From Minisyncoccia bacterium (GTDB lineage: Bacteria; Patescibacteriota; Minisyncoccia; Phycocordibacterales; UBA918), in NCBI GenBank assembly GCA_041750655.1, contig JBGSYZ010000012.1, positions 1 through 63,001 of the forward strand: a stretch of DNA of 63,001 nucleotides, read 5' to 3'. A program made the translations under genes and the position numbers. Below are positions 4,324 to 57,207 of the stretch, in pieces (position 1 is the first letter of the stretch; each line of letters opens with the position of its first letter). The notes beneath the pieces were generated by a model. That model worked only from the letters and a program-made list of their open reading frames with translations, had not been told where the DNA came from and did no database searches.

Positions 4324-4414
4324 TTGCCGATCTGTTGCGTTAGCAACAGCAGGCGAAGGAGGAATACGAACTTTAGCTTTTAGTTTAAAGCTGTGTTTCG
4401 ACACCTAAAAGCGA

Positions 4415-4438
4415 AAGGCCGGTTCACGAACCGGCCTT
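4415..4438 (-). terminator. Probable terminator of the XRE gene
   Basis: AAGGCCGGTT-CACG-AACCGGCCTT, followed by T-rich sequence on the minus strand. Confidence 0.65.
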
Positions 4439-4452
4439 AACGAGCATAGTTT

Positions 4453-4668
4453 TTATATTATCTTCACTTTCTCCGCGATTTCACCCGGCATCTGTGAAAT
4501 GACGAACAAGTAGGTCGTCGACGTCATGTCTGGCAAACGTATGCCCTGTTCCCAGTTTCGAATCGAATGTATTGGGACACGAAACATTCTCCCAAACTCA
4601 TCCTGACTCAAACCAAGTTCTTTACGCAAGGTCTTGAGTGACTCCGATACATTGTTTACATCAAACAT
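4453..4668 (-). CDS. XRE/HigA-like helix-turn-helix protein
   Basis: LRKELGLSQDEFGRMF.V....IRNWEQG.R.P; TTGACA-16-TAATGT promoter and GGGAG SD upstream. Confidence 0.85.
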   Translation of the reverse strand: MFDVNNVSESLKTLRKELGLSQDEFGRMFRVPIHSIRNWEQGIRLPDMTSTTYLFVISQMPGEIAEKVKII

Positions 4669-4832
4669 TCTGTAATCTCCCAGAAAAATCTATTTCCTAT
4701 ACATTACAATATATACTAAATTTGTCAATAACAAGTTCCAGCGATTCCTTCTATGAAAGGAAGGAATCGGGAACGAAAGGCGCACATTGTCGCTTGCGCT
4801 CTGTGTGCTTCTTTCTGTTATACTACCCCCAC

Positions 4833-6281
4833 ATGTTCAACCTATTTTCCAAAAAAATAGAAATCTCTAAAGAGCCAATCTGGCTTCTAAACTCCGCTTC
4901 CAACAAAAAGGAGGTTTTTGAACCATTGAAACCCGGCTACGCTAAAGTCTACTCTTGCGGCCCAACAGTGTATGACAACGTGCATATCGGAAACTTGCGC
5001 GCCTTTTTCATGGCTGACATTCTCAAACGCACTTTGATGTGGAATGGCTATCGGGTTCAAAGCACCATGAACTTTACTGATTTTGGCCACCTGACCGATG
5101 ACGCCGACGCCGGTGAAGACAAAATGATGAAAGGTCTTAAACGAGACGGTGAGCCAGTCACGTTAGAAGCAATGCGAGCAATGGCCGATACATACATTGA
5201 TAGATTTCTAGAAGACGCTACAGAAATGCGTTTCCTACCACCAACCGATTGGACCCGAGCCAGTGACTACGTAAAACAACAAATCAGTCTCATTGAAACC
5301 CTAGAAGAAAAAGGCTATACCTACGAAACTAGCGATGGTATTTATTTTGATATTTCCCGTTTCCCTACCTACGGTGTCTTAGGCAATATCGATGTAAGCA
5401 AAATGAAAGACGGTGCCCGCGTCGAGGTTAATCCAGAGAAAAGACACCCAGCTGATTTTGCTCTTTGGAAAAAAGGCGAATTGGGCTGGGATAGTCGGTG
5501 GGGCAAAGGTTTTCCTGGTTGGCACATCGAATGTTCGGCCATGGCTATGGCTACGCTTGGCAAACAAATGGATATCCATACTGGTGGCGAAGATAATAAG
5601 TATACGCACCACAACGCCGAGATTGCTCAATCAGAAAGTATTACTGGCAAACAATTTTCCAAGTACTGGCTACACAGTGCGTTCATGAATATCGATAACA
5701 CTAAGATTGCTAAAAGTATTGGCAACGCTATTTCCTTAAAACAACTGCGTGACCTCGGTTTTACTGGCAATGATTATCGCTACTGGCTATTGACGTCCCA
5801 CTACCGCTCCCCTATCAATTTCACCACTGATGCTCTGAAAGCTAGCAAACAAGCACTGTTTCGTCTTAAGCGCCACCTATTTGAAGAATACAAAAATGCT
5901 AAAGGAAAAATCAATCAAGAATATTTAACTAAGTTTACCAAAGCGATTAATGATGATTTAGACACACCTAAAGCGGTGGCAGTGGTCTGGGAATTAATAA
6001 AGGACGCCTCGATACCTGCTGGTGATAAGGTAACAACAATCAAAAAATTCGACGACGTGCTTGCTGTTGGCCTGTCTGATAAAGCCGAGGATGTAGTGCG
6101 AGAACTCGGAGTAATTGATATGGATGAAGTCCCTGCGGCTGTACAACAACTCATAAATGAACGAGAAGCAGCCCGCGCCGTGCGCAACTGGGAGGAAGCT
6201 GACCGGCTTCGTGAAGCTATTAATCTCAAAGGTTTTACTCTCGAAGATACGCCCGATGGACCTAAAATTTCTAAAGTATAA
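4833..6281 (+). CDS. cysS: Cysteine--tRNA ligase
   Basis: CGPTVYDNVHIGN (HIGH-like), GFPGWHIECSAM, DIHTGGED; start moved to 4833. Confidence 0.97.
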   Translation: MFNLFSKKIEISKEPIWLLNSASNKKEVFEPLKPGYAKVYSCGPTVYDNVHIGNLRAFFMADILKRTLMWNGYRVQSTMNFTDFGHLTDDADAGEDKMMKGLKRDGEPVTLEAMRAMADTYIDRFLEDATEMRFLPPTDWTRASDYVKQQISLIETLEEKGYTYETSDGIYFDISRFPTYGVLGNIDVSKMKDGARVEVNPEKRHPADFALWKKGELGWDSRWGKGFPGWHIECSAMAMATLGKQMDIHTGGEDNKYTHHNAEIAQSESITGKQFSKYWLHSAFMNIDNTKIAKSIGNAISLKQLRDLGFTGNDYRYWLLTSHYRSPINFTTDALKASKQALFRLKRHLFEEYKNAKGKINQEYLTKFTKAINDDLDTPKAVAVVWELIKDASIPAGDKVTTIKKFDDVLAVGLSDKAEDVVRELGVIDMDEVPAAVQQLINEREAARAVRNWEEADRLREAINLKGFTLEDTPDGPKISKV

Positions 6282-8766: not shown

Positions 8767-8911
8767 ATTCATAAAGATAATTAATATATCTTGTTTATTT
8801 AAATTCTAGATTTTGATACAAGAACAAGGCATGAGAAAACCTGGGAGGTTTTTGCAAGAAGTTAACAACTGCGTTAGCAGTGATAACTTGAACAGCTTCT
8901 GTAAGAAGAAA

Positions 8912-8957
8912 GAAAATGGCCCGAGGTGAACTTATTGTTCAGTGACGGGCCATTTTC
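8912..8957. terminator. Hairpin downstream of rplU
   Basis: GAAAATGGCCCG / CGGGCCATTTTC 12-bp stem with an inner TGAAC/GTTCA stem. Confidence 0.6.
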
Positions 8958-8994
8958 TGTAGTCCAACAAAGTTATTGTGTTGAAATCAGAGAT

Positions 8995-9417
8995 TTAAAG
9001 GGACTCTATTTTTACCTGAGCATAATGCTGTCGGTGACCTTGTTTACGATTACGGTTACTTTTAGCTTTGTAGCGAAGAATTGTTATCTTTGGCCCTTTC
9101 TTTTCCTTTAGGTACGTCGCGGTGACTTTAGCGCCTTTGATGTATGGAGTACCAACGGTAACGTCTTTGCCATTATCACTTAAAAGAACGTTTTCAAAAG
9201 TGATTTTGTCACCTTCTTTGTGATCTCCTTCGAGTAATTCAACTTCCAGAACATCACCTACTGAAACAATATATTGCTTACCGCCAGTTTCAATTACTGA
9301 AAAATCCTCAGACATTGTCTTTGCTACTTTTTTGGCCGGAGCCTTCTTGGTTGCTGCTTTAGGAGCTACTTTTTTAGTAGTTTTTTTGGCAGTCTTTTTT
9401 ACTGTTGTTTCAGCCAT
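8995..9417 (-). CDS. rplU: 50S ribosomal protein L21 with Lys/Ala-rich N-terminal extension
   Basis: VIETGGKQY.V..GD, GTPYIKGAKV.A, GHRQ.Y..VKI; start at 9417 or 9429. Confidence 0.95.
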   Translation of the reverse strand: MAETTVKKTAKKTTKKVAPKAATKKAPAKKVAKTMSEDFSVIETGGKQYIVSVGDVLEVELLEGDHKEGDKITFENVLLSDNGKDVTVGTPYIKGAKVTATYLKEKKGPKITILRYKAKSNRNRKQGHRQHYAQVKIESL

Positions 9418-9503
9418 AGTGGGCGCCATAGTACAAGATATCCTTGATTTTTGCAATAGTTTGGGTATTGTTGGTTTAGAAGATATGGCACAAGGAGAAA
9501 AAC

Positions 9504-45435: not shown

Positions 45436-46698
45436 TTACGCTTCTGTAGCGAAATCATCGTATAATTCATCTTCCATCAAAAAGCGCACTTCTCCACCCT
45501 TACGTGTCACTACCTCAAACTGACCTTCTTCTTTGGTTTTTTTTGAGGCCACTACACGATATGGCATACCAAGTAAATCTGAGTCAGCAAATTTTTCGCC
45601 GGCCCGGGCTTCGATACGGTCATCGTATAGCACTTCAACTCCACGCTTTTTAAGTGAGTCGTAAACACCATCGGCAAAATCTTTTATCTCACTATCGTCA
45701 AGATTTAAACCAACTAAATGTACTGTAAACGGAGCAATGCTCTCCGGCCAGATAATTCCTTTCTCGTCGGAAAGTAAATCAACTACCGTTCCCATTGCTC
45801 GAGCCGGCCCAATACCATATGAGCCCATAATAACTGGCACTTCCTCACCTGCTTCATTTTTGTAAGTCAGACCAATTGCTTCTGAAAATTTAGTACCTAA
45901 AGAGAAAATATTTCCCACCTCAATACTTTTACGTTTCTCAAGTTCGTCTTTGGTTACACCAAGCTCAGAGAGATCCGCCTCTGCGAGCACCTCTTCATTT
46001 ACCGCTATTCCTTTAGCTTCATTTACATACACAATATCTTCCCCGGCTTCAGCGAGTGTTTGGAATTCATGGCTAAATTTGGTGAATGCTCCACCAGAAG
46101 CAAAAGTTTTGTACGTTTTATCTCCTATACCAATACGATCAAAGACATTTTTATAGGCAATGGCATACGCTTCATAAATCTCAGCGTGTTGTTCTTCAGT
46201 GGCACAAAATGTATATAGGTCTTTCATCCAGAACTCTCGAGTTCTCATAATTCCACTTTTGGCTCGCATTTCGTTTCGGAATTTTGTTTGAATATGATAC
46301 GCCGAAAACGGAAGGTCTTTGTATGAAGAAACATACTTGGACATAATCTCTGTAATTACTTCTTCATGTGTCCATGCAAAACCAATATCACCGCCGGCTT
46401 TTAATTCACCTTTAAACCAGACATCAACTTTATCATCATCCCAACGATCACTTTTTTTCCAAAGTTCTGGATCTTGGAGACTCGGCATATACATTTCTTG
46501 AGCACCAACCGCATTCATTTCTTCACGAATGATTGTATTAATTTTTTCAATTACCTTAAGTCCGAGCGGAAGAAAGGTGTAGACTCCGGCCATGTTTTTA
46601 TAGACATAGCCGCCACGAATGAGAAGCTGGGCATTCTTCGCCACCTCATCCGCTGGGGCCTCTTTCAAGGTTTTCGTAAATAGTTGAGTTTGTTTCAT
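45436..46698 (-). CDS. proS: Proline--tRNA ligase (short bacterial type, no insertion editing domain)
   Basis: QTKFRNE.R...G.MRTREF.MKD.Y, EVGNIF.LG, MGSYGIG. Confidence 0.95.
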   Translation of the reverse strand: MKQTQLFTKTLKEAPADEVAKNAQLLIRGGYVYKNMAGVYTFLPLGLKVIEKINTIIREEMNAVGAQEMYMPSLQDPELWKKSDRWDDDKVDVWFKGELKAGGDIGFAWTHEEVITEIMSKYVSSYKDLPFSAYHIQTKFRNEMRAKSGIMRTREFWMKDLYTFCATEEQHAEIYEAYAIAYKNVFDRIGIGDKTYKTFASGGAFTKFSHEFQTLAEAGEDIVYVNEAKGIAVNEEVLAEADLSELGVTKDELEKRKSIEVGNIFSLGTKFSEAIGLTYKNEAGEEVPVIMGSYGIGPARAMGTVVDLLSDEKGIIWPESIAPFTVHLVGLNLDDSEIKDFADGVYDSLKKRGVEVLYDDRIEARAGEKFADSDLLGMPYRVVASKKTKEEGQFEVVTRKGGEVRFLMEDELYDDFATEA

Positions 46699-46842
46699 AT
46701 TTTAGTAGTTAATCATTAGTAAAATAGCCATTAGTTAATGAGTACCACTATGGGCATTGGAAACAAAAATACCATCATAAGAGTCTTATACTATCGGTAA
46801 AACCCCGAAGCTTCAAGTTTTTCGTCACCCATTGAACTTTTT

Positions 46843-46968
46843 CCGAAATTGAAAAATTATGCTGGATGCGAGGCGTAGGAGGAAAATTGTTGGAGGCGTA
46901 TGTTTATACGTTGACAACTATTTTACCGAACTACAACAAAGCAGACGGTACAATTTTTACAATTTCGG
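46843..46968 (+). ncRNA. Structured element, family 1, copy A
   Basis: GA-TGC-GAGGC...GAGG-CGTAT.ATACG-TTGA...AACAAA-GCA-GA inside an AT-rich inverted repeat. Confidence 0.6.
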
Positions 46969-46970
46969 TT

Positions 46971-48062
46971 TTAGATAAGTTTAGCAATGTCTGACCAAGT
47001 CACCGCCACCATCAGAGCAATCAATAAAAAGAATCCGATAGTGTTAAGACGGGCGACCCAAACTGGTTTAATCGGCGAACCCTTAACTACCTCAATAGCC
47101 ACAAACAATAATCTACCTCCATCAAGTGCCGGAAAAGGTAGTAAATTTATAACCGCTAAGTTTACAGAAATAAGAGCAGTAAAAAGAAGTAGTGAAGTCA
47201 AACCAAACTGGGAAGCCTCTTCAACCAAACCAACAATGCCGATCGGACCAGCCACTCCAGACAGATCTGCACGGAATAACAGTGTGTCATAGAGTAATTT
47301 GCTAATACCGGTAGTAACGGCAATTAATGTGTGAAAAGTTTGTTTTGTCCCTTCAATTACAGCGATATGAATCGGTTCTCTCACCACATCAATCATTGCC
47401 AAAGCCACACCCATGACTGCTCTATCGGGCATTTCTTCTACTAAACCAGTAATAGGAGTCACCGGAACCGTCTTTTCTTCTCCTGCGTAGGTATAGGTAA
47501 CTTCAAGAGACTGGTTTGGTCTATCCTCAGTAAAGGCTTGGAATGAAGACACATTGAGGATTTGGTCAGACTCACCGTTTGACGAAAGACCAGTGATTAC
47601 TGCCCCGCGAGGCAAACCAGCTTCTGCTGCTGGACTGTCAGTGATCACTTCAGACACAATCAAGCGTGCATCGGCTGTTGCTTCTGCTTCATCGACGACG
47701 GTAGGAATGCCGAGAGCAAAAACAAGAACAAACAATAGCCAAGCAAACATCATATTCATCATTACACCGGCAATAAGTACCATGCTTTGTTGGAGTGGTG
47801 ATTTGGCGATAAAAGAACGGTCACGGTCTGGTGAGGATGCGGCATCAGCCGTATCCTCACCAAAGATTTTAACGAACCCTCCAATCGGTAGAAGATTGAA
47901 AGAATATTCGGTTTCACCTCTTTTGATACTAGCTACTTTAGGAGGAAAACCGATTCCAAACTCATCAACTCGCATACCTGTCTTTTTGGCTACCCAAAAA
48001 TGACCGAACTCATGCACTAACACCAGTACAAAAATTACAATAAAAAATAAGATGACTGACAT
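46971..48062 (-). CDS. rseP: RIP metalloprotease RseP
   Basis: HEFGH, PDZ domain, NLLPFPALDGG. Confidence 0.94.
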   Translation of the reverse strand: MSVILFFIVIFVLVLVHEFGHFWVAKKTGMRVDEFGIGFPPKVASIKRGETEYSFNLLPIGGFVKIFGEDTADAASSPDRDRSFIAKSPLQQSMVLIAGVMMNMMFAWLLFVLVFALGIPTVVDEAEATADARLIVSEVITDSPAAEAGLPRGAVITGLSSNGESDQILNVSSFQAFTEDRPNQSLEVTYTYAGEEKTVPVTPITGLVEEMPDRAVMGVALAMIDVVREPIHIAVIEGTKQTFHTLIAVTTGISKLLYDTLLFRADLSGVAGPIGIVGLVEEASQFGLTSLLLFTALISVNLAVINLLPFPALDGGRLLFVAIEVVKGSPIKPVWVARLNTIGFFLLIALMVAVTWSDIAKLI

Positions 48063-48084
48063 AGATGCAATTCTGAATTATTGA

Positions 48085-48639
48085 TTAAACTGAAGTAATA
48101 TTTTTCTCTTTGGCAGTATAGAGAGAATCTAGCGAATTGTTGGCTGCATCAACTTCTTTTTGGATTGACTCTTTTAAGCGGAATTTTTCATCCTCACTCA
48201 ACTCACCATCTTTTTCGGCTTTTTCAACCTGTTTCATGATTTCGTCACGAGCGTTACGTAATGACACTCTGGCTTCTTCGTGTTTATGCTTTGCAACTTT
48301 AGCCAACTGGGTTCGGCGTTCACCGGTAAGTTCTGGAAATATCACCCGCAAACCTGTACTATCTGTAACTACTGAAAGACCCAAATCAGCATCAATAATA
48401 GCGCGCTCCACTGCAGCGACCTGGCTCGCGTCCCAAACCGAAACACGCAGTGTGCGAGCATCTTCTACCCCAACGGTGCCAACTTGATTAAGCGGCATTT
48501 TCGCCCCATAGGAATCAACCCGAACCGCATCCAATAATGTAGCGGAAGCTTCGCCGGTTCGTATACTGGCAAATTCTTTTCCAAGCCAATCGACTATTTC
48601 TTTGGCTCGTTCTGTAAATGTAGAAGTATCAAAATTCAT
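48085..48639 (-). CDS. frr: Ribosome recycling factor
   Basis: IRTG.A, V.SYG, P.LT.ERR, R.ARD. Confidence 0.95.
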   Translation of the reverse strand: MNFDTSTFTERAKEIVDWLGKEFASIRTGEASATLLDAVRVDSYGAKMPLNQVGTVGVEDARTLRVSVWDASQVAAVERAIIDADLGLSVVTDSTGLRVIFPELTGERRTQLAKVAKHKHEEARVSLRNARDEIMKQVEKAEKDGELSEDEKFRLKESIQKEVDAANNSLDSLYTAKEKNITSV

Positions 48640-48688
48640 ATGTGGTTATTCTAGCCATTTAAGTAAATATTCACAAGTAATATAAGAT

Positions 48689-49270
48689 TTATATAATTAA
48701 CGCTAAGTGTTCCAACAGCATTTTGGCTGATGCCCCAGGTCCTTGAATATGTTTTGTAACGAACAGCACCTCTTTAGCAATTGACGTAGATAATTTTTTT
48801 TCAATACATAATTGTTCAATTCCTTGCAATAGACCCTGTTGCCACGCTGTGTCTTTGGCGGTTGTTTTTTCGGCAATTAATTCCAGTCTTTCCGTACACC
48901 CTAATCTCATAAAACCTTCTGAAATGTCAGAAACCCTAGCTTTTTCTGTGCTAAAAATTTGAAACCGTGAACGAAGAGTTGGCAACAACCGGGAATGATC
49001 TGAAATTACAAAGTGGAAACTAGTATGTACTGGTGGTTCTTCTAACACTTTAAGTAGAGCATTTTGGGCTTCAATATTTATTTGATCGGACACCACGACT
49101 ATCGCTCGGTTACCACCGCTGGACAAGGGTTGGCTGTAGGCTTGATTAATTAATTGACGCACTGTGCCAATCGACAGTTTCGGCTCTACTATTTCTACAA
49201 AATCAACTTTGTCGATATACGACAAATCTGGCAAAGACTCTCTAGAAATATATAAATTGGCGTGATGCAT
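48689..49270 (-). CDS. DNA polymerase III delta'-like subunit (short)
   Basis: EAQNALLKVLEEPP, LLPTLRSR. Confidence 0.85.
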   Translation of the reverse strand: MHHANLYISRESLPDLSYIDKVDFVEIVEPKLSIGTVRQLINQAYSQPLSSGGNRAIVVVSDQINIEAQNALLKVLEEPPVHTSFHFVISDHSRLLPTLRSRFQIFSTEKARVSDISEGFMRLGCTERLELIAEKTTAKDTAWQQGLLQGIEQLCIEKKLSTSIAKEVLFVTKHIQGPGASAKMLLEHLALII

Positions 49271-49291
49271 TAACTCTATTATGCCAATATT

Positions 49292-50893
49292 TTAGCGTTT
49301 TGCATCTTTAAGCACTTTACGAACCACCCGACGTAGAAAATGATCAAAGGTTTCTGAGTGTTGAGGAACGATTGATTGTTCGTACCGCCAACCATTAATA
49401 TAATCGTTGATGCTTTGCTGGATCTCACCAGTCGCCCCAGTAAATGTGCCATTCATGATTGAAATCATTGTATTGTCTTTGATGCTGACATACAAAGGAT
49501 GATCAATCCCTCCTGGACCCATACCAAAAAGACCGCTGCCTTTAAATATTTTCCATTCCGACAATAATTGAGTGAGGCCAATTGTAATGTCGGGAGTCAT
49601 TAAGTCTTCACTCGTTTCAGCATGATGCAGCGTGGCAGATTTTACTTTGACGCTGGTTGCAGACGTATCTTGAGATATCGGAGGTGGTGGCGGTGTTGGA
49701 CGTATTTCCCTCTCAGTTGGCGGTACTGGTGGGGATAACTTTTGAGGTATTCCAACACTACGCGCTGGCCTTGAAAAACCATACGTGGGGATATCTTGCA
49801 GCGGCATTCCTCCGAGTTGACGTTCTTCTTTTTTTTCTGATGGCACTACTTGAGTATCTACTGACTCAGAAACTTGTTCGGCAGCCACTTTTTTCCACAT
49901 CTCTTCGTCTTGTACTAGATTCTCTTTTATACCTTGAGGAATCAAAGGACTGACTGGTGTTGGTATAACAGATTCTGATTGTGGAGCTGGAGTTGCTGGT
50001 TCAGCTATAGGTTGTTCTGGTTGTACGGGCAAAGTAGTAGTGTTCACATGGGTAACAGGAATGTGATTTGGCGATGGTTCAAAATCTGGTTTTATACCAC
50101 GCTCAGCCACACCCTTTACCGCCACAAACGCCTTTTCCAAATTTGCCATCGCTTGAGTCGCTTCTTCTTTAGTACCGCTGTTAGTTTTTTTCATCGCCTC
50201 AAGTAGCGAAGTCATATACTGTTTACCGACTGCGTTATCTATATCAACCAAATTAACGGGATTCCCCACCAAGGTGATCACTTCTCTTTTTATCTCCAAT
50301 ATTCTATCGATACTACTTTTTTCAGCTACTGGCGTTGAGACCGACTCAAGGGTCGGTACTTGAGATGAAGCCGGAGTAGGTTGAACAAGGGGCTCAACTG
50401 CTGGCGCAGCAGCTACTGGTGGGACAGTAGTAGTACCTGCTGTATTTTGTACCGCCGGTGTTGGCGTAACTACTGGCGGCTGTGCTGGCGATGTCGCAGT
50501 TTTGGGTGATTTTGGTTTGTCAAAACTTGGAACCGGGCGACTTCCAGAAAAACCGAAAGGTTTTGTTGGTTTTGGTTCTGGTTTTTGGTCAGCAGGTTTT
50601 TCACCTCCAACCTCTACTACAGGCTCAGCATCTTTAGCAGCTGGTTTGGAGCCAGGGATAAGAGCTAGGCTAGAAAGAATTGCTTCTAATTCATCTCGTA
50701 CCCCCGAATCTCCTCCTGTTTGGGCATATTTAAGAACCATTTCTCGGATAGTGGTTTTAGTTTGCGCAGAGAGACTAGAGGTACGGAGTTGTTTTAGAAG
50801 ATTAGCAATACCTTGCTGAGTTTCCAAGTCAAAAGCAGCAGCAGTTTTTGCTGCAGAAGCTACATGTGAAGAACTACCCGATACCTCCGGCAT
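49292..50893 (-). CDS. Pro/Ala-rich hypothetical protein (533 aa)
   Basis: Long ORF; TGTTACAAT 9 nt upstream of the ATG. Confidence 0.8.
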   Translation of the reverse strand: MPEVSGSSSHVASAAKTAAAFDLETQQGIANLLKQLRTSSLSAQTKTTIREMVLKYAQTGGDSGVRDELEAILSSLALIPGSKPAAKDAEPVVEVGGEKPADQKPEPKPTKPFGFSGSRPVPSFDKPKSPKTATSPAQPPVVTPTPAVQNTAGTTTVPPVAAAPAVEPLVQPTPASSQVPTLESVSTPVAEKSSIDRILEIKREVITLVGNPVNLVDIDNAVGKQYMTSLLEAMKKTNSGTKEEATQAMANLEKAFVAVKGVAERGIKPDFEPSPNHIPVTHVNTTTLPVQPEQPIAEPATPAPQSESVIPTPVSPLIPQGIKENLVQDEEMWKKVAAEQVSESVDTQVVPSEKKEERQLGGMPLQDIPTYGFSRPARSVGIPQKLSPPVPPTEREIRPTPPPPPISQDTSATSVKVKSATLHHAETSEDLMTPDITIGLTQLLSEWKIFKGSGLFGMGPGGIDHPLYVSIKDNTMISIMNGTFTGATGEIQQSINDYINGWRYEQSIVPQHSETFDHFLRRVVRKVLKDAKR

Positions 50894-50958
50894 AATACTT
50901 TCATTGTAACACCTTACATTTTTTAGCGAACACTTTTGTGGTTACGCGCTGTGTATAT

Positions 50959-52479
50959 TTAGATGCCAAGTAGGCGGGTACGAGTTCCTTCGGTGTTAGT
51001 TTCTGTTCCGTGACGCTGGGCCTTGATTATTCCTTGGTAAAGTTTTGGAACGTACTCACCAAGTATCATATGTGGTTCTAAATGTGGAGCAAATCCTCCG
51101 GCCCGTTGTTGTAGGTTAGCTAACCATATCCGTGATTTATCACTGGTGTCTTTGGTGCGCAAAAAATCGTCTACTCGCATTTCAGAAAGAGCTCTAACTA
51201 CACCGAAATATTTACCTTCGGCCCATTCTGTTTGCATGCCTTTATTGCGTAATTCCTTCAACATTAAATTTTCGGCAGCTGAAGCAATTTCGGCCATGTC
51301 TTCTATTTCATTGTTTCTATCTTGTATCGACTCTTGTCGATATACTCTAGCTTCAGAATCTTCTCTAGTTTCATCTGGTAAATCCTCAAATGGCAATTCA
51401 GGTTTATCGTTTTCGGCAAAAACTTCATGGACTGTTTCTGTTGGAGTTATTACTTCACCAGTATCATCAATCATATTATTTTGATACATTTCAAATTCAA
51501 AAATGGCTTCATGGAGATCATGCAAACGTTGCATTTTTTCAGCTAACAATTCTTCGGAAAAAACCTTCACTTTGTCTTTATATTCTTGAATTAGGTTTTT
51601 AATCTCATCCTTAACACGGCGATACTTTTTTCGAGTTTGTAAATCAGCTTTCCAGGCATCTACTTCTTGAGTTAGTGAGTTAAGATCAGTATCAAGTCTT
51701 ATTATTTCCTTTTCTATTTCAGAAAAATCAGTTGATTCGTTATTTGTAGCTACTTCAACTTTGGGCGTTTCACCTATCTTTTCTTCACTAACTTTTAAAA
51801 ATCTTTTAAGTGGCTCTGGACTAGCTGTTGTGTTTCCATTTTCGGAGACATGTGTGCGTCTTTCAACTATTTCTCCTTCTGGCTCATTCAACACTGCTTC
51901 CTTTGTATCATCTAAATTAACTACTGTTTCTGCTCCACCGAGTGGTTCTTTGGTTGGTACTTTTACTTCCTCTGAAGGTTTAGTGTTAATATTTGCAACC
52001 TTAGGTACTGTATTAAGATTAGCAGCGCTTTCTCGCATACGATTTATAATTCTGTCTATTTGAGCATCATCAGTCGGCACTTCAACTACGTTTGACCGCT
52101 CATCACTCTCGGTTGTCAGTTCTTCTGCCTCAACAACTTCAGATGTAACTGCATCTAGAATATCAATCTTACTGTCTTCAACGATTGGTTCAATAGAATC
52201 TACTGCTTCCTCTTTGTCGTCCTCTGGCTCGGTAGCCAAAGCTTCTGCTTCAACCACTGTTTCGTTCTCTTCTTCAAACTCATCATCAGATTCCCAATTA
52301 TTAATAACGGCCTGCATAACTTCATACTCTGTTCGGTAGTCTGGCACTTCTGGTTTAAAGGCTGGATTAACAAAACTCGTATCAATACCTAAGCGCTTAG
52401 CACCAGATTGTTCACGAGAAAAATCAGGATACCTCTCCTGGAAACTTTTTCTTCCTGTTTTTTGTTGAGCACCTTCCAT
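50959..52479 (-). CDS. Acidic coiled-coil hypothetical protein (506 aa)
   Basis: Long Glu-rich ORF. Confidence 0.8.
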   Translation of the reverse strand: MEGAQQKTGRKSFQERYPDFSREQSGAKRLGIDTSFVNPAFKPEVPDYRTEYEVMQAVINNWESDDEFEEENETVVEAEALATEPEDDKEEAVDSIEPIVEDSKIDILDAVTSEVVEAEELTTESDERSNVVEVPTDDAQIDRIINRMRESAANLNTVPKVANINTKPSEEVKVPTKEPLGGAETVVNLDDTKEAVLNEPEGEIVERRTHVSENGNTTASPEPLKRFLKVSEEKIGETPKVEVATNNESTDFSEIEKEIIRLDTDLNSLTQEVDAWKADLQTRKKYRRVKDEIKNLIQEYKDKVKVFSEELLAEKMQRLHDLHEAIFEFEMYQNNMIDDTGEVITPTETVHEVFAENDKPELPFEDLPDETREDSEARVYRQESIQDRNNEIEDMAEIASAAENLMLKELRNKGMQTEWAEGKYFGVVRALSEMRVDDFLRTKDTSDKSRIWLANLQQRAGGFAPHLEPHMILGEYVPKLYQGIIKAQRHGTETNTEGTRTRLLGI

Positions 52480-52494
52480 AATGTCACTACTATA

Positions 52495-55278
52495 TCACCT
52501 CGAGCCAAGTGGGCGTGGGGATGCAGCCGCCTGCGGTGGCTGCATCTTTTGGTACCGAGCCTGAATTTCCGCCTCCACTTCACCTCGCGGGCGTCCATAA
52601 CGAGCTAAACTATTAGCAATCAGCTGTGGTACTCTTGAACTCTCAACTTCTGGTGGTGGTAAGGTATTCATACTAAACGGCGGGGTCGGCACACCGTTAG
52701 CTAGAATACGCATATAGGCTTGGTAGTTAGGAATATTCATAATTTCATTAGCCGCAAAAACGGTACCTAACTGGTGCTCTAAAAACTGAGCGTCTTCCGG
52801 ACCAACCCGAAAGACAGCCATCGAGCCGACGTTTCCGAAAACGGCATCCCGAATCTTTTCATCAAGCTGCGCTATAAATTGATGAGCCACCACCAGTCCT
52901 AGTTTGTACTTACGCGCTTCAGAAAGAATTGCTGAAATAGATGGTGTAGACACATTCTGAAACTCATCAATATGTAAGAAAAATGGAGGTAAATTCATAC
53001 CCGGGCTATCAACCCGTGATAACGCCGCCATAAGAATTTTGCCGACCACAATCATCCCAATGAGATTGGCATTGATTTCACCCAAACGACCCTTGGACAG
53101 GTTAACTAAAAGTATCTTGCGAGTATCCATCACATCGCGGAAGTTGAAGGTTGATTCTTGCTGCCCAATGATTGGACGAATGTAATCGTTGGCCGTAAAG
53201 ACGTCAAACTTAGAAACGATATACGGCACGATATTTTCAAGCGAAGCTTCTCCGCCCGCTTTCGTCGCAATTTCTCGCCAGAATTGCGTCACCACCGGGT
53301 TAGTCGCGTGCTCGAGTTTCATACGACGATAACTAGCATCACTCATCACTCGCGAGATATCCATCAATGTATTACCGCTTTCGGGGTGATCCATGACCAA
53401 CAATGTGGCGTTGCGGAAGTATTGCTCAAACATCGGTCCCATGCTTTCTGGATTAGCACCGTACAATTTTTGGAATATTGAAAAAAGCTCATTGACGACA
53501 AAGGTTTTTTGCTCGGGTTTGTTTTTATCGTACTCAAGCATGTTGAGCCCGACCACTTGTTCCATCTGTGATGGATCAAAATAAATCACGTCTTTTTCAC
53601 GTTCTTTGGGTACGGCTGCCAGTACATCCTCAATGTCGGTTCCGTGTGGGTCAATCATACACACCCCAGCACCAGCTAAAATATCTTGGATGATCAGATT
53701 CTTCATAAACACCGACTTACCAGTACCGGTTTGTCCGATGATATAAAAGTGTCGCATCCGGTCGAGCTCAGTCACGTAGACTGGACTCTCCACCCCACGG
53801 TGGGCATTAGTGCCCAACAGGGTACCTTCAGCCGGCATCTCGGTGGGGGCGGCGGCTGTTTTAGCATGTGTTTGTTTAAATTGTGGCGCCGCCCCCACCC
53901 CACTTTCTGGCAAGTGGAAAATAGTGGCGAGCTCATGTTCTGAGAGCGGTACCACGCTCTTTTTATCAAATTCCCGAAAGGAAAAAGCTTTTATGGCTTT
54001 ACTTAATGGCTTCACCCCGGTAATGCGGTTGAAAACAAACGTGTTTCCTTCCATGTTTTGGTACTGATTAAACGTCGCTTCCATTTCAGAAAGAATTTGT
54101 GTTGCGCGAATCTGGGTCTTGGCCGACACCACTAAACGAATATTGGTATCGAAAACTGGGTAGCGAATTTTTTCTCGGAAAAGCTCAATGGCCCGAGTAT
54201 TTATTTCTTTCGGTTTTTCTACTTCGTTGGTATTTTTGTTTTTCGAAGCACTTTTAAACATCTCTTTCATGGTCAACATCATTTCCCCACCAAGTGTACT
54301 TTTAGCAATAGAATCCTTGACCGACATACCACCCTCGATACGTTCGATTATTTTTTCGTAACTCTTGGTATACATGTGGTCATTCGGTTTGACTACAATC
54401 TGCACCGACGCCCCGCCTCCTTCCTTTTCTATTTTTGAAAAAGCATTGATGAGCACCATGAACGGATCAGACTGAAACTCGTCGCTCTGGCGGATTGGGT
54501 AGATAGGGTGCTTTTTTAAATCTACTGTCGCCAGCGCCGACTCTCCGCCTTCAACAAAAATATTATAGTCATGGACCTGTTCGGTTAATCGCACTCCTGG
54601 GAAAAGAGACAGAATTTGTTTTTCAAAAAGGTCAATGTGTTCGCTCGGTATCGCGACGTAAAGCACAATATCGTTACTGCCTTCCGCTACAGCAAGCTCC
54701 ATCACGTAGTGAGCATTACTCACACTTCCCACGGAGCGCATGCCCGCAAAAAATTGCTGCATGGTTCCAACCAACTCCAGTAAGCTGTGCCCGCTATCTT
54801 CTTTGTTGATGCGACCAGGCATGGCTACTTCAAAAAGCGTCATATGTAGCACTTGCCATGGCGGCACCCCTTCTTTAAAATCTTGGAGTTCTTTGCCTGA
54901 TCGAATATGCTCTACCAAACGACGATGTACTTCATCAGTGAGATACGCATCCTTTTGGGTTTCCAGAAGCATGAGGGCATGATGTACGCCTTTCTCAAGA
55001 GCAATAGCTACCACTTCTTCTACTTTATCCCGAGCACTTTCTATTTGGGCCAATGATTGCGCGACAACTTCGTCTGGCTTCTCAAAATCTTTTTGTAAGA
55101 CTGACTGCGGGGTGAAGGTCACGTAGTCACGAAGTTCCTGTTTGCCAATAGTTTCCACATCAGCCTTATCGGCCTCGAGATTACGCCCTAAAAGCACTCG
55201 CTCCTGCTCAGCAATCTGCTCACGTAAAAAAGCAATCTCCTCCTCGGGAGAACCAAATTGTTCTTGCGGCCGCTCCAT
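52495..55278 (-). CDS. VirD4/TraG-like (HerA/FtsK superfamily) coupling ATPase
   Basis: Walker A GQTGTGKS, IDPHG, Walker B IDEFQN, SEARKY. Confidence 0.88.
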   Translation of the reverse strand: MERPQEQFGSPEEEIAFLREQIAEQERVLLGRNLEADKADVETIGKQELRDYVTFTPQSVLQKDFEKPDEVVAQSLAQIESARDKVEEVVAIALEKGVHHALMLLETQKDAYLTDEVHRRLVEHIRSGKELQDFKEGVPPWQVLHMTLFEVAMPGRINKEDSGHSLLELVGTMQQFFAGMRSVGSVSNAHYVMELAVAEGSNDIVLYVAIPSEHIDLFEKQILSLFPGVRLTEQVHDYNIFVEGGESALATVDLKKHPIYPIRQSDEFQSDPFMVLINAFSKIEKEGGGASVQIVVKPNDHMYTKSYEKIIERIEGGMSVKDSIAKSTLGGEMMLTMKEMFKSASKNKNTNEVEKPKEINTRAIELFREKIRYPVFDTNIRLVVSAKTQIRATQILSEMEATFNQYQNMEGNTFVFNRITGVKPLSKAIKAFSFREFDKKSVVPLSEHELATIFHLPESGVGAAPQFKQTHAKTAAAPTEMPAEGTLLGTNAHRGVESPVYVTELDRMRHFYIIGQTGTGKSVFMKNLIIQDILAGAGVCMIDPHGTDIEDVLAAVPKEREKDVIYFDPSQMEQVVGLNMLEYDKNKPEQKTFVVNELFSIFQKLYGANPESMGPMFEQYFRNATLLVMDHPESGNTLMDISRVMSDASYRRMKLEHATNPVVTQFWREIATKAGGEASLENIVPYIVSKFDVFTANDYIRPIIGQQESTFNFRDVMDTRKILLVNLSKGRLGEINANLIGMIVVGKILMAALSRVDSPGMNLPPFFLHIDEFQNVSTPSISAILSEARKYKLGLVVAHQFIAQLDEKIRDAVFGNVGSMAVFRVGPEDAQFLEHQLGTVFAANEIMNIPNYQAYMRILANGVPTPPFSMNTLPPPEVESSRVPQLIANSLARYGRPRGEVEAEIQARYQKMQPPQAAASPRPLGSR

Positions 55279-55335
55279 ATATGTATATGGTACCGCGAAA
55301 GCACTTTTAAATCGTGGCTTTATTCACTGTAAATA

Positions 55336-55860
55336 TTAATCTTCACTATCTCGGAAGTGTGCGTTTTCAGGAAGTGACACGTCAATAAATTCAAATGACA
55401 CCCCCAGATCCTTCATTTGGGCAACGGGATCATCGACTCGCTCAACTTCTATAGGTAACGCGGGGTCATGAGTAATAATTTCTAACTCACCTAAACCTTC
55501 TTTGTGAATAAATTTATCTTCCTCAAAATGGTACACATAGCCACCTTCACCATATAGTACTTCAAGACTATGTTCGAGTGATTCGACACCGATTATTGCA
55601 AGCTTTTTATTGTCTTCGTAGAGACTCACTGCCATGGCATATTCCGCTTTAAAATCATAACCTTCAATTGGTTTAGATTTTTCAGTATAAGCCAAGGCGA
55701 CCCAACGATGAAGTGTGGCGTGGAATGATTCCTCATCAAATATCACCTCTTCAACCCCACTTTCATTGGTACGAGTACGTACTTGTCGCTTAGGTTTTGC
55801 TTCTTCAGAATCAAATTTTTCGTGCGTACCGTGAAAAACGGTTTTGGGAATTTTTTCCAT
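55336..55860 (-). CDS. Hypothetical protein, possible ADP-ribosyltransferase-like fold
   Basis: VFHGT...FHAT....VA.AY...GYVY spacing. Confidence 0.7.
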   Translation of the reverse strand: MEKIPKTVFHGTHEKFDSEEAKPKRQVRTRTNESGVEEVIFDEESFHATLHRWVALAYTEKSKPIEGYDFKAEYAMAVSLYEDNKKLAIIGVESLEHSLEVLYGEGGYVYHFEEDKFIHKEGLGELEIITHDPALPIEVERVDDPVAQMKDLGVSFEFIDVSLPENAHFRDSED

Positions 55861-55878
55861 ATTTTTTATCAAAGTTTA

Positions 55879-56002
55879 CCAAATACTAAATTTTAAGATG
55901 AGTACGAGGCGTGCGAGCAGCACAGCTCGAAGTGTACTACTTGTACAGTGAGAGTTGTGCCACGAAGTACAACGAAGTAATCGCTTAAAATTTAGTATTT
56001 GG
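55879..56002 (+). ncRNA. Structured element, family 1, copy C
   Basis: 19-bp perfect inverted repeat around TAC-GAGGC...GAAG-TGTAC.GTACA-GTGA...AACGAA-GTA. Confidence 0.6.
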
Positions 56003-56020
56003 CAGCAAAGGATTTATTTG

Positions 56021-56112
56021 CTGGCAGATGCGCGAAACGACAAGATTTAGGAAGGAGGCGTATAAGCATACGGTGACTGACTAAATCGCAGTCGTGACAA
56101 AGCAGATGCTAG
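56021..56112 (+). ncRNA. Structured element, family 1, copy B
   Basis: GA-TGC-GCGAA...GAGG-CGTAT.ATACG-GTGA...GACAAA-GCA-GA. Confidence 0.6.
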
Positions 56113-56116
56113 AAAA

Positions 56117-57130
56117 TCAATACTTTGCCTCGATGGCGCGCTTATAGGCGTCCAGATGCTCAAGAGCCTCCCCCGTCCCTTTCGCCACACAGAAAAGTGC
56201 TTGGTCGGCCAGATGCGCCTTCACTCCGGTGCGCCGTTTGATAAGCTCGGGGAAATTACGCAACTGTGACGTACCACCAGTCATAATGATACCGCCGTCG
56301 ATGATATCTGAGGCGAGCTCTGGTGGCGTATCTTGAAAGACATCTTTTATAGTCTGTACCATGTCGCGGAGCTCTCGTGAAATAGCTCGCACAATTTCGT
56401 TGGTCCGAATCGTGATAGTCCGTGGCAAACCGGTCAAAATATCCCGACCATTTATGTCCATAGAAAGTTCTTCTTCCAGCGGCAAAGCTGAGCCAATATT
56501 TATTTTTACATCTTCAGCAGTTTTTTCACCGATGCTGAGATTATAATTTTTCTTGATGTACTCAATGATAGCCGCATCAATACGATTACCCGCACATTTC
56601 ACTGACCGCGAAGCGACGATGCCCCCGAGCGAAATCACCGCCACGTCGATAGTGCCACCGCCACAGTCTACAATCATATGGCCTTGAGCTTCATAAATAG
56701 GCACCTGGGCGCCGATGGCTGCCAGAATTGGCTCTTTCACCACGTATGCGTAGCGGGCACCGGCGTTCATCGCCGCTTCGACCACTGCCCGCTTCTCGGT
56801 AGAAGATACCCCGGCTGGCACCGATACCATCACTTCAGGACGAAATAATTGATAGCGACCAAGCACCTTACGTAAAAAGTAGCGCAGCATAATTTCGGTC
56901 ACCCGATAATCAGCGATTACACCGTCGCGCATCGGACGGTACGCCCGAATATTCTCAGGAGTCCGACCAATCATTTCTTTGGCCTCTGCCCCCACGGCTA
57001 ACACCTCATTGTTATCAGAGATAGCCACCACCGATGGCTCATTCAAGACAACGCCTTGACCGGGGATAAACACTAAGACACTTGTGGTACCTAAGTCGAT
57101 ACCAACTTTGGGAGTAAGTTTGTTAAACAT
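56117..57130 (-). CDS. mreB: Second MreB/Mbl paralog
   Basis: GIDLGTT, EPILAAIGA, DCGGGT, TGGTSQL; start moved to 57130. Confidence 0.93.
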   Translation of the reverse strand: MFNKLTPKVGIDLGTTSVLVFIPGQGVVLNEPSVVAISDNNEVLAVGAEAKEMIGRTPENIRAYRPMRDGVIADYRVTEIMLRYFLRKVLGRYQLFRPEVMVSVPAGVSSTEKRAVVEAAMNAGARYAYVVKEPILAAIGAQVPIYEAQGHMIVDCGGGTIDVAVISLGGIVASRSVKCAGNRIDAAIIEYIKKNYNLSIGEKTAEDVKINIGSALPLEEELSMDINGRDILTGLPRTITIRTNEIVRAISRELRDMVQTIKDVFQDTPPELASDIIDGGIIMTGGTSQLRNFPELIKRRTGVKAHLADQALFCVAKGTGEALEHLDAYKRAIEAKY

Positions 57131-57207
57131 TGAATATGAATTGTATAGCTTTTTCTGCACAATTGAAAGGGAACCCGACATAGCGTATCTGCTATACTAC
57201 TCTCAAT

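What the first reader, a model, noticed from the sequence alone, without database searches (positions are those of the whole stretch)
46843..56112. Dispersed family of about 90-nt structured elements with covarying stems (3 copies)
Seen: copies at 46843-46968 (A), 55879-56002 (C) and 56021-56112 (B) share one skeleton despite different stem sequences: GA-TRC-[GAGGC/GCGAA]-stem-RA-stem-GA(A/G)G-5 bp hairpin-(G/T)TGA-stem'-G(A/C)A-stem'-[AACAAA/AACGAA/GACAAA]-GYA. Compensatory changes include TGC/GCA vs TAC/GTA, GTAG/CTAC vs GTGC/GTAC vs ACGAC/GTCGT, and apical CGTAT/ATACG vs TGTAC/GTACA. The purine-rich internal loops stay conserved and include tandem-GA, kink-turn-like motifs. G-U pairs fall on the + strand, antisense to all flanking genes. 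A and C are enclosed by unrelated AT-rich inverted repeats. Inferred: an RNA or ssDNA fold under selection, for example a protein-binding repeat, sRNA, ribozyme or non-autonomous mobile element. I do not recognise it as a named family.
Basis: partly seen in the sequence, partly recalled or inferred. Interest (0 to 1): 0.85.

Follow-up and report, generated by a model that had tools for sequence, protein, structure and literature searches.

The report
Stop-codon-hugging structured hairpin repeat family
The three look-alike folded elements are real members of an uncatalogued family of small mobile hairpin repeats of ultra-small (Patescibacteria) bacteria that sit against the stop codons of housekeeping genes, yet fold best on the strand opposite the gene, for a reason still unknown.

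Summary
The three copies share a rod-like fold: a 78-nt core plus a closing helix, about 124 nt in all. The stems covary strongly and the purine-rich internal loops are invariant. A covariance model finds 16 copies in this 0.9-Mb genome. It finds 1-69 copies in 23 of 24 congeners, and patchy occurrences across the class and phylum. Rfam 15 has no match. Mismatches are about 8-10 times more often G-U than A-C on the element strand, so that strand is the one under selection. In this genus about 90% of copies lie with their 3' end 7-27 nt from the stop codon of a convergent, housekeeping gene. The last ~10 bp of each rod are copy-specific and pair with the gene's own end. In other genera the same core sits in identical 175-183-bp units with 18-19-bp terminal inverted repeats and 3-bp direct repeats, which is MITE behaviour. 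Close relatives have empty sites. My best reading is a non-autonomous mobile palindromic repeat with a conserved structured core; here the copies are old. The mobilising enzyme and any function in place are unknown.

The parts
46843..46968 (+). Copy A, a full rod (core 46866-46944). It lies 2 nt past the TAA of the rseP-like M50 protease gene, on the strand antisense to that gene.
   Evidence: Relatives L241 and L242 have an empty site here.
55879..56003 (+). Copy C, a full rod (core 55902-55980) with a perfect 19-bp closing helix. It is the second member of a tandem pair behind mreB.
56005..56127 (+). Copy B, a full rod (core 56028-56105). Its 3' arm covers the mreB stop codon (56117-56119) and the last codons of the gene.
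   Evidence: The closest relative, L097, has an empty site here.
8896..8975 (+). A weak or degenerate fourth copy, about 20 nt from the stop of the convergent rplU-like gene (8995-9456, - strand).
   Evidence: R2 score 47.7 bits, E 2e-8.
46971..48062 (-). Peptidase M50 (RseP-like) gene. Copy A abuts its stop codon.
56117..57181 (-). mreB. Its last codons and stop codon form one arm of copy B's terminal helix.

Best explanation
**What it is.** These are copies of a non-autonomous, palindromic mobile repeat confined to Patescibacteria. It is of the same general kind as MITEs and ERIC/REP-type repeats. It differs from them in being built around a conserved ~78-nt structured core.

**What is shown**
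- The full-length form, seen in other genera, is 175-183 bp. It has 18-19-bp terminal inverted repeats and 3-bp direct repeats at its ends, and it occurs as identical copies. It has therefore been transposing recently as a unit.
- In this genome and genus the form is a ~124-nt rod. The copies are old (60-80% alike), are inherited vertically at some loci, and are absent from the same loci in close relatives.
- The copies that persist lie against stop codons of housekeeping genes, in one orientation.
- The outermost ~10 bp of each rod is copy-specific. Its distal arm is an inverted copy of the gene-side flank, which often includes the stop codon and the last codons.
- Tolerated mismatches are G-U and G-A on the element strand. 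They would be A-C and C-U on the gene strand.

**What is inferred**
- The active or selected form is the single-stranded bottom strand. It could act as DNA during replication or repair, or as antisense RNA. Its conserved purine-rich loops would be read by a factor that has not been identified.
- The distal arm is made by templated copying of the target, by fold-back or template-switch synthesis across the hairpin base.
- Stop codons are favoured because AT-rich TNA-type targets there are regenerated by the duplication. They are also among the few harmless insertion sites in a genome that is about 87% coding.
For: **Family size and spread.** 16 copies in this genome. 23 of 24 congeners carry 1-69 copies, and 0 of 16 other families of the same order carry any. 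27 of 300 genomes of the class in 24 genera, and 10 further genomes in other classes.

**Covariation.**

**Strand asymmetry.**. The spectrum includes G-A 88 against C-U 11. Mutation bias cannot explain this, because the transition product C-A (15) is much rarer than the transversion product G-A.

**Position and orientation.** 79 of 89 copies have a convergent gene at their 3' side, and 71 lie 7-27 nt from its stop. Orientation follows the gene even where GC skew points the other way. The same rule holds in another class, where 8 of 9 copies in G354 obey it.

**Neighbouring genes.** The preceding genes are housekeeping genes, some within operons, such as rpsG, secY, atpG, rpoD, ssb and mreB.

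**Rod ends.** The helix ends sharply 23+/-1 nt from the core.

**Terminal helix made with the gene's own end.**
- mreB in G022: a 17-bp perfect helix, CCAAACGCTGATTTTGT/ACAAAATCAGCGTTTGG.
- mreB in G021: GCTAAGAGGTAA/TTACCTCTTAGC.
- ROK kinase gene in G021: GCGAACCTAA/TTAGGTTCGC.
- Two pairs of copies in G018 with 91%-identical cores have unrelated terminal helices.

**Empty sites.** L097 behind mreB and L241/L242 behind rseP.

**MITE features.** Identical copies with terminal inverted repeats and 3-bp direct repeats (TTA/TAA/TGA in G179; ATA/TTA/AAT in G280 and G266).
Against: - No cognate transposase was found. No longer element in G179 carries the same terminal repeats. DDE_Tnp_1 and DDE_Tnp_1_2 are absent from most carrier genomes, including this one.
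- A cut-and-paste DDE mechanism acts on double-stranded ends. It explains neither the strand-specific fold nor why the interior is more conserved than the ends across genera.
- The copies in this genome have no terminal-repeat consensus and no direct repeats, so their mode of arrival is inferred rather than seen.
- In the active 175-bp families orientation relative to genes is mixed. The orientation lock here therefore reflects either later selection or a different mechanism.
- Orthologous rods show compensatory change in place. This points to a function at the site, which a purely selfish element does not need.
- No transcript data could be obtained.
Confidence: 0.6

Rival explanations
1. It is a host-serving cis element that works as antisense-strand RNA. 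Transcripts that run backwards into a gene's 3' end fold into the rod. There they are terminated, processed or bound by a protein, which shields housekeeping genes and operons from antisense transcription while letting sense transcription pass.
For: - The fold is optimised on the antisense strand.
- Orientation follows the gene, not replication.
- Orthologous loci show compensatory change in place.
- Copies lie inside operons, where sense read-through is needed.
- About 65% of copies have an A-run and a U-run at positions -12..-10 and +10..+12, as in a bidirectional terminator.
Against: - There is no consistent promoter upstream. In tight operon spacers there is no room for one.
- The terminator scan found nothing.
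- A sizeable subfamily, including copy B and most G354 copies, has the opposite polarity, U-rich on the 5' side and A-rich on the 3' side. These copies have no 3' U-tract in either direction.
- The idea does not explain the identical transposing copies in other genera.
- Copy number runs from 0 to 69 among congeners, which is odd for a needed element.
Confidence: 0.2
2. It is a 3'-UTR or intercistronic mRNA element that acts on the gene (sense) strand. It would work like the REP/BIME hairpins of E. coli, which protect the upstream cistron from 3' exonucleases or tune expression within an operon.
For: - The element starts at or just after the stop codon and is certainly co-transcribed with the gene in operon contexts.
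- The sense strand still folds into a rod.
- REP and ERIC elements provide a precedent (my own knowledge).
Against: - Mismatches are overwhelmingly the kind that pair on the antisense strand and clash on the sense strand. G-U against A-C is 168:21 in the core and 143:15 in the flanks. G-A against C-U is 88:11.
- A conserved G-U in 71 of 90 copies would be an A-C mismatch in the mRNA.
- Sense-strand folds are 9-15 kcal/mol weaker, with poor z-scores.
Confidence: 0.1
3. It is an attC-like single-stranded DNA recombination site. The folded bottom strand behind each gene would be the substrate of a tyrosine or HUH recombinase that exchanges gene-sized cassettes.
For: - The design matches attC: directly behind an ORF, locked to its orientation, bottom strand folded, structure conserved rather than sequence, and conserved unpaired bases including an invariant AAC.
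- Gene order downstream of mreB differs where rods are present.
Against: - The AAC is unpaired and lies on the 3' side. There is no paired RYYYAAC/GTTRRRY box.
- Copies follow core housekeeping genes and sit inside conserved operons rather than in an array.
- RAYT-like HUH genes in congeners are flanked by their own short 20-25-nt palindromes, not by rods. This genome has no such gene.
- No integrase link was tested.
Confidence: 0.07

Closest known systems
ERIC / IRU (enterobacterial 127-bp imperfect palindromes) and other bacterial MITEs such as Correia elements (from my own knowledge)
   Same: - It is a gene-less imperfect palindrome of about 125-180 bp.
- It is dispersed in transcribed intergenic regions.
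- Copy number varies widely between related genomes.
- Active forms have terminal inverted repeats and short direct repeats.
   Different: - There is no sequence similarity to anything in 5,426 E. coli genomes.
- The interior, not the ends, is what is conserved across genera.
- Asymmetric purine-rich loops are invariant.
- In most lineages the copies are locked to stop codons in one orientation.
- The selected fold is on the strand opposite the gene.
- The terminal helix is copy-specific and built from the gene's end.
- No cognate transposase was found.
REP / BIME / REPIN elements with RAYT (Y1 HUH) transposases
   Same: - They are extragenic palindromes at gene 3' ends and inside operons.
- Their activity is strand-specific and single-stranded, which would fit the strand asymmetry seen here.
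- RAYT-like genes exist in 15 of 25 congeners, and rod counts are higher in those genomes (rho 0.52, p 0.008).
   Different: - The RAYT-like genes are flanked by their own short 20-25-nt palindromes and never by rods.
- This genome has 16 rods and no RAYT gene.
- The rods are 124 nt, diverge in sequence and carry conserved internal loops. REPs are 20-40 nt and nearly identical within a genome.
Integron attC sites
   Same: Both lie behind an ORF and are locked to its orientation. In both, the bottom strand is the folded one, structure is conserved over sequence, and unpaired bases are conserved.
   Different: - There is no R-box (paired AAC/GTT).
- The elements are not in cassette arrays.
- They follow housekeeping genes.
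- The terminal helix is variable and derived from the target.

Membership tests
MITE (non-autonomous DDE-type transposon) | Short, with no ORF | tested here: met
   The rods are 124 nt here and 175-183 bp in G179, G266, G280 and G334.
MITE (non-autonomous DDE-type transposon) | Terminal inverted repeats shared by the copies | tested here: inconclusive
   Met in G179, G266, G280, G334 and G108. In this genome the terminal 10 bp differ from copy to copy.
MITE (non-autonomous DDE-type transposon) | Target-site duplication | tested here: inconclusive
   3-bp direct repeats are present in G179, G280 and G266. None is visible at the rods of this genus.
MITE (non-autonomous DDE-type transposon) | A cognate autonomous element with the same ends | tested here: not met
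   G179 has no pair of these terminal repeats spaced about 1-2 kb apart. DDE_Tnp_1 and DDE_Tnp_1_2 are absent from 12 of 13 carrier genomes tested. Other transposase families were not tested.
REP/REPIN-RAYT system | A RAYT gene flanked by the repeat | tested here: not met
   There are no rods within the flanks of 16 RAYT-like genes. These genes have their own short palindromes. G000 has no RAYT gene.
Integron attC | Paired R''/R' box (RYYYAAC/GTTRRRY) and a cassette array next to intI | tested here: not met
   The AAC is unpaired and on the 3' side. Copies are dispersed behind housekeeping genes. A search for intI was not run.
Kink-turn | A 3-nt bulge followed by tandem sheared G-A pairs | tested here: not met
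   The tandem G-A pairs sit in symmetric loops flanked directly by Watson-Crick pairs, with no bulge.
Any Rfam 15 family | A covariance-model match | tested here: not met
   The gathering threshold finds only a tRNA in the window. With the E-value limit raised to 10, the elements give only chance hits.
Intrinsic terminator | A stable stem followed at once by a U-tract | tested here: not met
   The scan finds none at A, B or C. A U-run at +10..+12 occurs in about 65% of copies, but the polarity is reversed in copy B and in the G354 copies.
TIGR arrays (Tas-associated) | Tandem units of two 8-12-nt spacers flanked by box C/D motifs, next to a Nop-domain gene | tested here: not met
   The anatomy described in PMC12045711 does not fit. 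Here the variable parts are base-paired, and the copies are dispersed.

The most novel reading that the evidence does not exclude
The rods may be a phylum-wide, strand-specific cis element of a new kind. A folded bottom-strand module would be anchored on stop codons, kept by selection at housekeeping genes, and read by a so far unknown conserved factor. It would spread by a hairpin-based mechanism that copies about 10 nt of the target in inverted orientation to build its own closing helix. That would be an insertion chemistry different from any described transposon.
Probability: 0.2. Interest if true: 0.8.

Novelty: new variant of a known kind. Interest (0 to 1): 0.55.

Why it matters
- Patescibacteria have tiny, gene-dense genomes and are thought to carry few repeats. 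This is an abundant structured repeat family, with up to 69 copies per ~1 Mb. It sits on the stop codons of ribosomal, secretion, ATP-synthase and cell-shape genes, and no catalogue lists it.
- Annotation pipelines will miss it, and assemblies may break at it.
- Three features do not fit a plain MITE: the fold is selected on the strand opposite the mRNA, the orientation is locked to the gene, and the closing helix is templated from the gene's end. They point either to a single-strand-based way of moving or to an unrecognised function at gene ends. Both can be tested with stranded transcriptomes and with population-level insertion junctions.

Tried and rejected
- **Rfam.** Searches at the gathering threshold and at an E-value limit of 10 found nothing.
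- **TIGR-Tas arrays.** I read the paper; the anatomy differs.
- **Kink-turn.** There is no bulge.
- **Reverse transcriptase link.** RVT_1 occurs in only 6 of 26 congeners and not in this genome.
- **RAYT link.** There is a positive correlation with copy number. However, the RAYT-like genes carry their own short palindromes and no rods, so I do not accept the link.
- **IS5-type transposase.** I suspected one from the TNA direct repeats. None was found in most carrier genomes, and no longer element in G179 has the same ends.
- **A 9-bp direct repeat at one G018 copy.** It looked like a target duplication. I rejected it because the motif is natively tandem in relatives.
- **Insertion into pre-existing hairpin loops.** This could explain the copy-specific helix, and G179 has 47-bp palindromes made of the terminal repeats alone. 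But the empty sites behind rseP and mreB, and the empty G024 site, show no such hairpin. The question stays open.
- **Dedicated promoter upstream.** There is only a faint excess of TATAAT-like hexamers (19 against about 9 per bin).
- **Similarity to E. coli (ERIC), phage or plasmid DNA.** None.
- **Literature.** Four searches found no description.
Full report
**Observation**

Each folds on the + strand into the same unbranched rod, with energies far below shuffled controls (z -4.4, -3.5, -7.3). The reverse complements fold 9-15 kcal/mol less well. Rfam 15 has no family for them, either at gathering thresholds or at an E-value limit of 10.

A regex descriptor found a fourth copy on another contig. 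A hand-checked alignment of the four gave 92% paired cells, with 17 of 25 pairs changed on both sides. The covariance model R1 built from it found 16 copies in the 906-kb genome.

**Family and fold**

R1 found the element in 23 of 24 genomes of the same genus, at 1 to 69 copies each. It found none in 16 other families of the order. Record titles place the genus among Kaiserbacteria/Paceibacteria.

Ninety-one copies aligned to the model are 92.9% paired. Twenty-four of 25 pairs change on both sides, no shuffle out of 500 reaches this, and slid controls reach only 34-55%. The alignment was fitted to the model, which favours it.

Several unpaired positions are nearly invariant:
- the tandem G-A pairs at the P3/P4 junction (G38 A39 / G83 A84);
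- AAC in the 3' strand of the large loop;
- GG in its 5' strand.

The conserved unit extends 13 nt further on each side. The consensus is AAAAUUGnnnCAG / AUGnnnnAAUUUU, with a third tandem G-A at the base of P1. About 10 bp of copy-specific helix follow. The helix ends sharply 23+/-1 nt from the core, which gives a rod of about 124 nt. The tandem G-A motifs lack the 3-nt bulge that defines a kink-turn.

**Which strand**

| Region | G-U on element strand | A-C | G-A | C-U |
|---|---|---|---|---|
| Core | 168 | 21 | | |
| Flanking helices, strand-neutral scoring | 143 | 15 | 88 | 11 |
| Terminal 10 bp | 52 | 10 | | |

Transitions should produce C-A at least as often as transversions produce G-A. 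The spectrum therefore reflects selection for pairing on the element strand, not mutation bias. One pair is G-U in 71 of 90 copies.

**Position**

In this genome every good copy has its 3' end 9-30 nt from the stop codon of a gene on the opposite strand. Across 90 copies of the genus:
- 79 of 89 have such a convergent gene, and 71 of them lie 7-27 nt from the stop;
- values near 137-140 are the second member of a tandem pair, as with C behind B;
- the orientation follows the gene even in copies where local GC skew points the other way.

The genes are housekeeping ones. From reading their sequences I identify rpsG, secY, ndk, lepA, rplU, ssb, rpmE, rpoD, atpG, a YebC-like gene and an FKBP gene. 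Pfam identifies the M50 protease and MreB. Several copies lie inside conserved operons.

No consistent promoter precedes the rods. Some operon spacers leave no room for one.

**The closing helix**

The stop codon lies inside or at the end of the terminal helix in nearly all copies. Behind mreB the distal arm is the inverted complement of that species' own last codons plus stop:
- a 17-bp perfect helix in G022;
- 12 bp in G021;
- similar helices in G041, G018 and G000.

Behind a ROK-kinase gene, G021 has GCGAACCTAA/TTAGGTTCGC. The MreB tail is the same in filled and empty genomes, so the coding arm is native and the distal arm is the copy.

Two pairs of G018 copies with 91%-identical cores and identical inner stems have unrelated terminal helices. 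The helix is therefore acquired at each site and not inherited. For the second rod behind mreB in G018, the sequence copied into the distal arm is present in the empty G024 site, while the distal arm itself is not.

I infer templated copying across the hairpin base, by fold-back or template-switch synthesis. This step was not observed.

**Mobility**

*Empty sites in close relatives.* A contig whose MreB is 94% identical has a 62-nt spacer and no rod. Two metagenome contigs with 87%-identical RseP have a 144-nt spacer where G000 has 272 nt. The extra sequence starts directly after TAA. A 91% relative is filled.

*Vertical inheritance.* Rods at one locus are orthologous among subsets of species and have diverged with compensatory changes. 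G016 keeps only half a rod.

*Wider distribution.* The broader model R2 finds the core in 27 of 300 other genomes of the class, spread over 24 genera, but in none of 12 genomes of the same order. It finds 10 more genomes in other classes. This patchiness suggests horizontal spread.

*Active forms.* In G179, G266, G334 and G280 the copies are identical or 85-98% alike over 175-183 bp.
- They share one modular layout: terminal repeat GAGnTnnTTTCAAAACyC, then TTTCGTnGCGAAA, inner stem, core, inner stem, TTGCAGnAGAAA, and terminal repeat.
- They are flanked by 3-bp direct repeats: TTA, TAA or TGA in G179, and ATA, TTA or AAT in G280 and G266.
- This is MITE behaviour. In these families genes end at either junction, so orientation is not locked.
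- A TNA duplication at a stop codon regenerates the stop. This would make stop codons safe targets.

*The rule elsewhere.* In G108 and in G354 (another class), the shorter rods again sit 16-25 nt from a convergent stop. The stop-hugging, orientation-locked state is therefore general.

**Partner enzyme**

None was found.
- RVT_1 is in 6 of 26 congeners and not in this genome.
- Y1 (RAYT-like) genes are in 15 of 25. Their best NCBIfam match is the REP-associated tyrosine transposase, just under its cut-off. Rod counts are higher in the genomes that carry them (p 0.007).
- Those genes are bracketed by their own 20-25-nt palindromes and never by rods, so I do not accept the link.
- G179 has no longer element with the MITE's ends, but it does have 47-bp palindromes made of the terminal repeats alone.
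- DDE_Tnp_1 and DDE_Tnp_1_2 are absent from most carrier genomes.

**Comparison with known elements**

The closest in design are ERIC-type palindromic MITEs, REP/REPIN elements and integron attC sites. None fits as a family:
- there is no sequence match to E. coli genomes, phages or plasmids;
- there is no RAYT association;
- there is no paired AAC/GTT box and no cassette array.

The papers I could search do not describe the element. TIGR arrays, which also occur in these bacteria, have a different anatomy.

Earlier notes of this scan describe similar stop-codon hairpin repeats in other Patescibacteria. I read them after finding the stop-codon rule myself, and I treat them as leads only.

**Verdict**

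This is a real, uncatalogued, phylum-wide family. My best reading is a mobile palindromic repeat with a conserved structured core. In this genome it is represented by old, stop-codon-anchored copies. Three things are unexplained: why the bottom strand is the one that folds, why the orientation is locked, and what moves the element.

Noticed in passing
L185 (G018:C1:189001-198000) about 4380-5003; also L186, L187, L189, L191, L193 and L194: Congeners carry RAYT-like Y1 HUH genes of 200-300 aa, with the HUH motif PNHFHL and the motif GRYKS. Each gene is bracketed by its own short perfect palindromes, for example TCTTAGGGGTTTAACCCCTAAGA and CCCGGAGGTCCGTCCTCCGGG. This is a separate REP/RAYT-like system in Patescibacteria.
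   Followed up: partly
G179:C3:67294-67340 and G179:C6:7823-7870: These are 47-bp palindromes made only of the MITE's terminal repeats, without the core. They may be the empty vehicle into whose centre the ~128-nt rod was once inserted, or they may be internal deletion products.
   Followed up: no
window 48085-55872: Gene order breaks exactly at the rods behind mreB. Relatives have a conserved '...QFSSPEEE...' gene there. G000 instead has a 178-aa ORF followed by a HerA/TraG-like ATPase (52495-55278) and other genes, and the block is bounded by copy A at its far end.
   Followed up: partly
L097 (PHFX01000279.1): A 2.9-kb contig filed under 'Candidatus Brocadia sp. WS118' encodes an MreB 94% identical to this Patescibacteria gene. 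It is probably a mis-binned contig.
   Followed up: no
L076 (G005, downstream of mreB): A different nested hairpin starts at the mreB stop codon. Its outer helix is GTTATAGGTTGGAGG...CCTCCAACCTATAAC, and it encloses two GC-rich hairpins. The habit of enclosing material in a helix anchored at the stop codon is therefore not limited to this family.
   Followed up: no
L067 (G016, downstream of mreB): Only the distal half of a rod remains here. Its terminal arm still matches the mreB end of relatives rather than that of G016 itself. It is a fossil of the ancestral gene end.
   Followed up: no
window 46680-47000 compared with L240: In G000 the proximal arm of copy A (CCGAAATTGTAAAAATTG) resembles the rseP gene end of the 91% relative L240 (CCAAAATTATATAAACC). 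In L240 that gene end itself forms the arm. This suggests either a 16-nt duplication in G000 or a deletion in L240 between direct repeats.
   Followed up: partly
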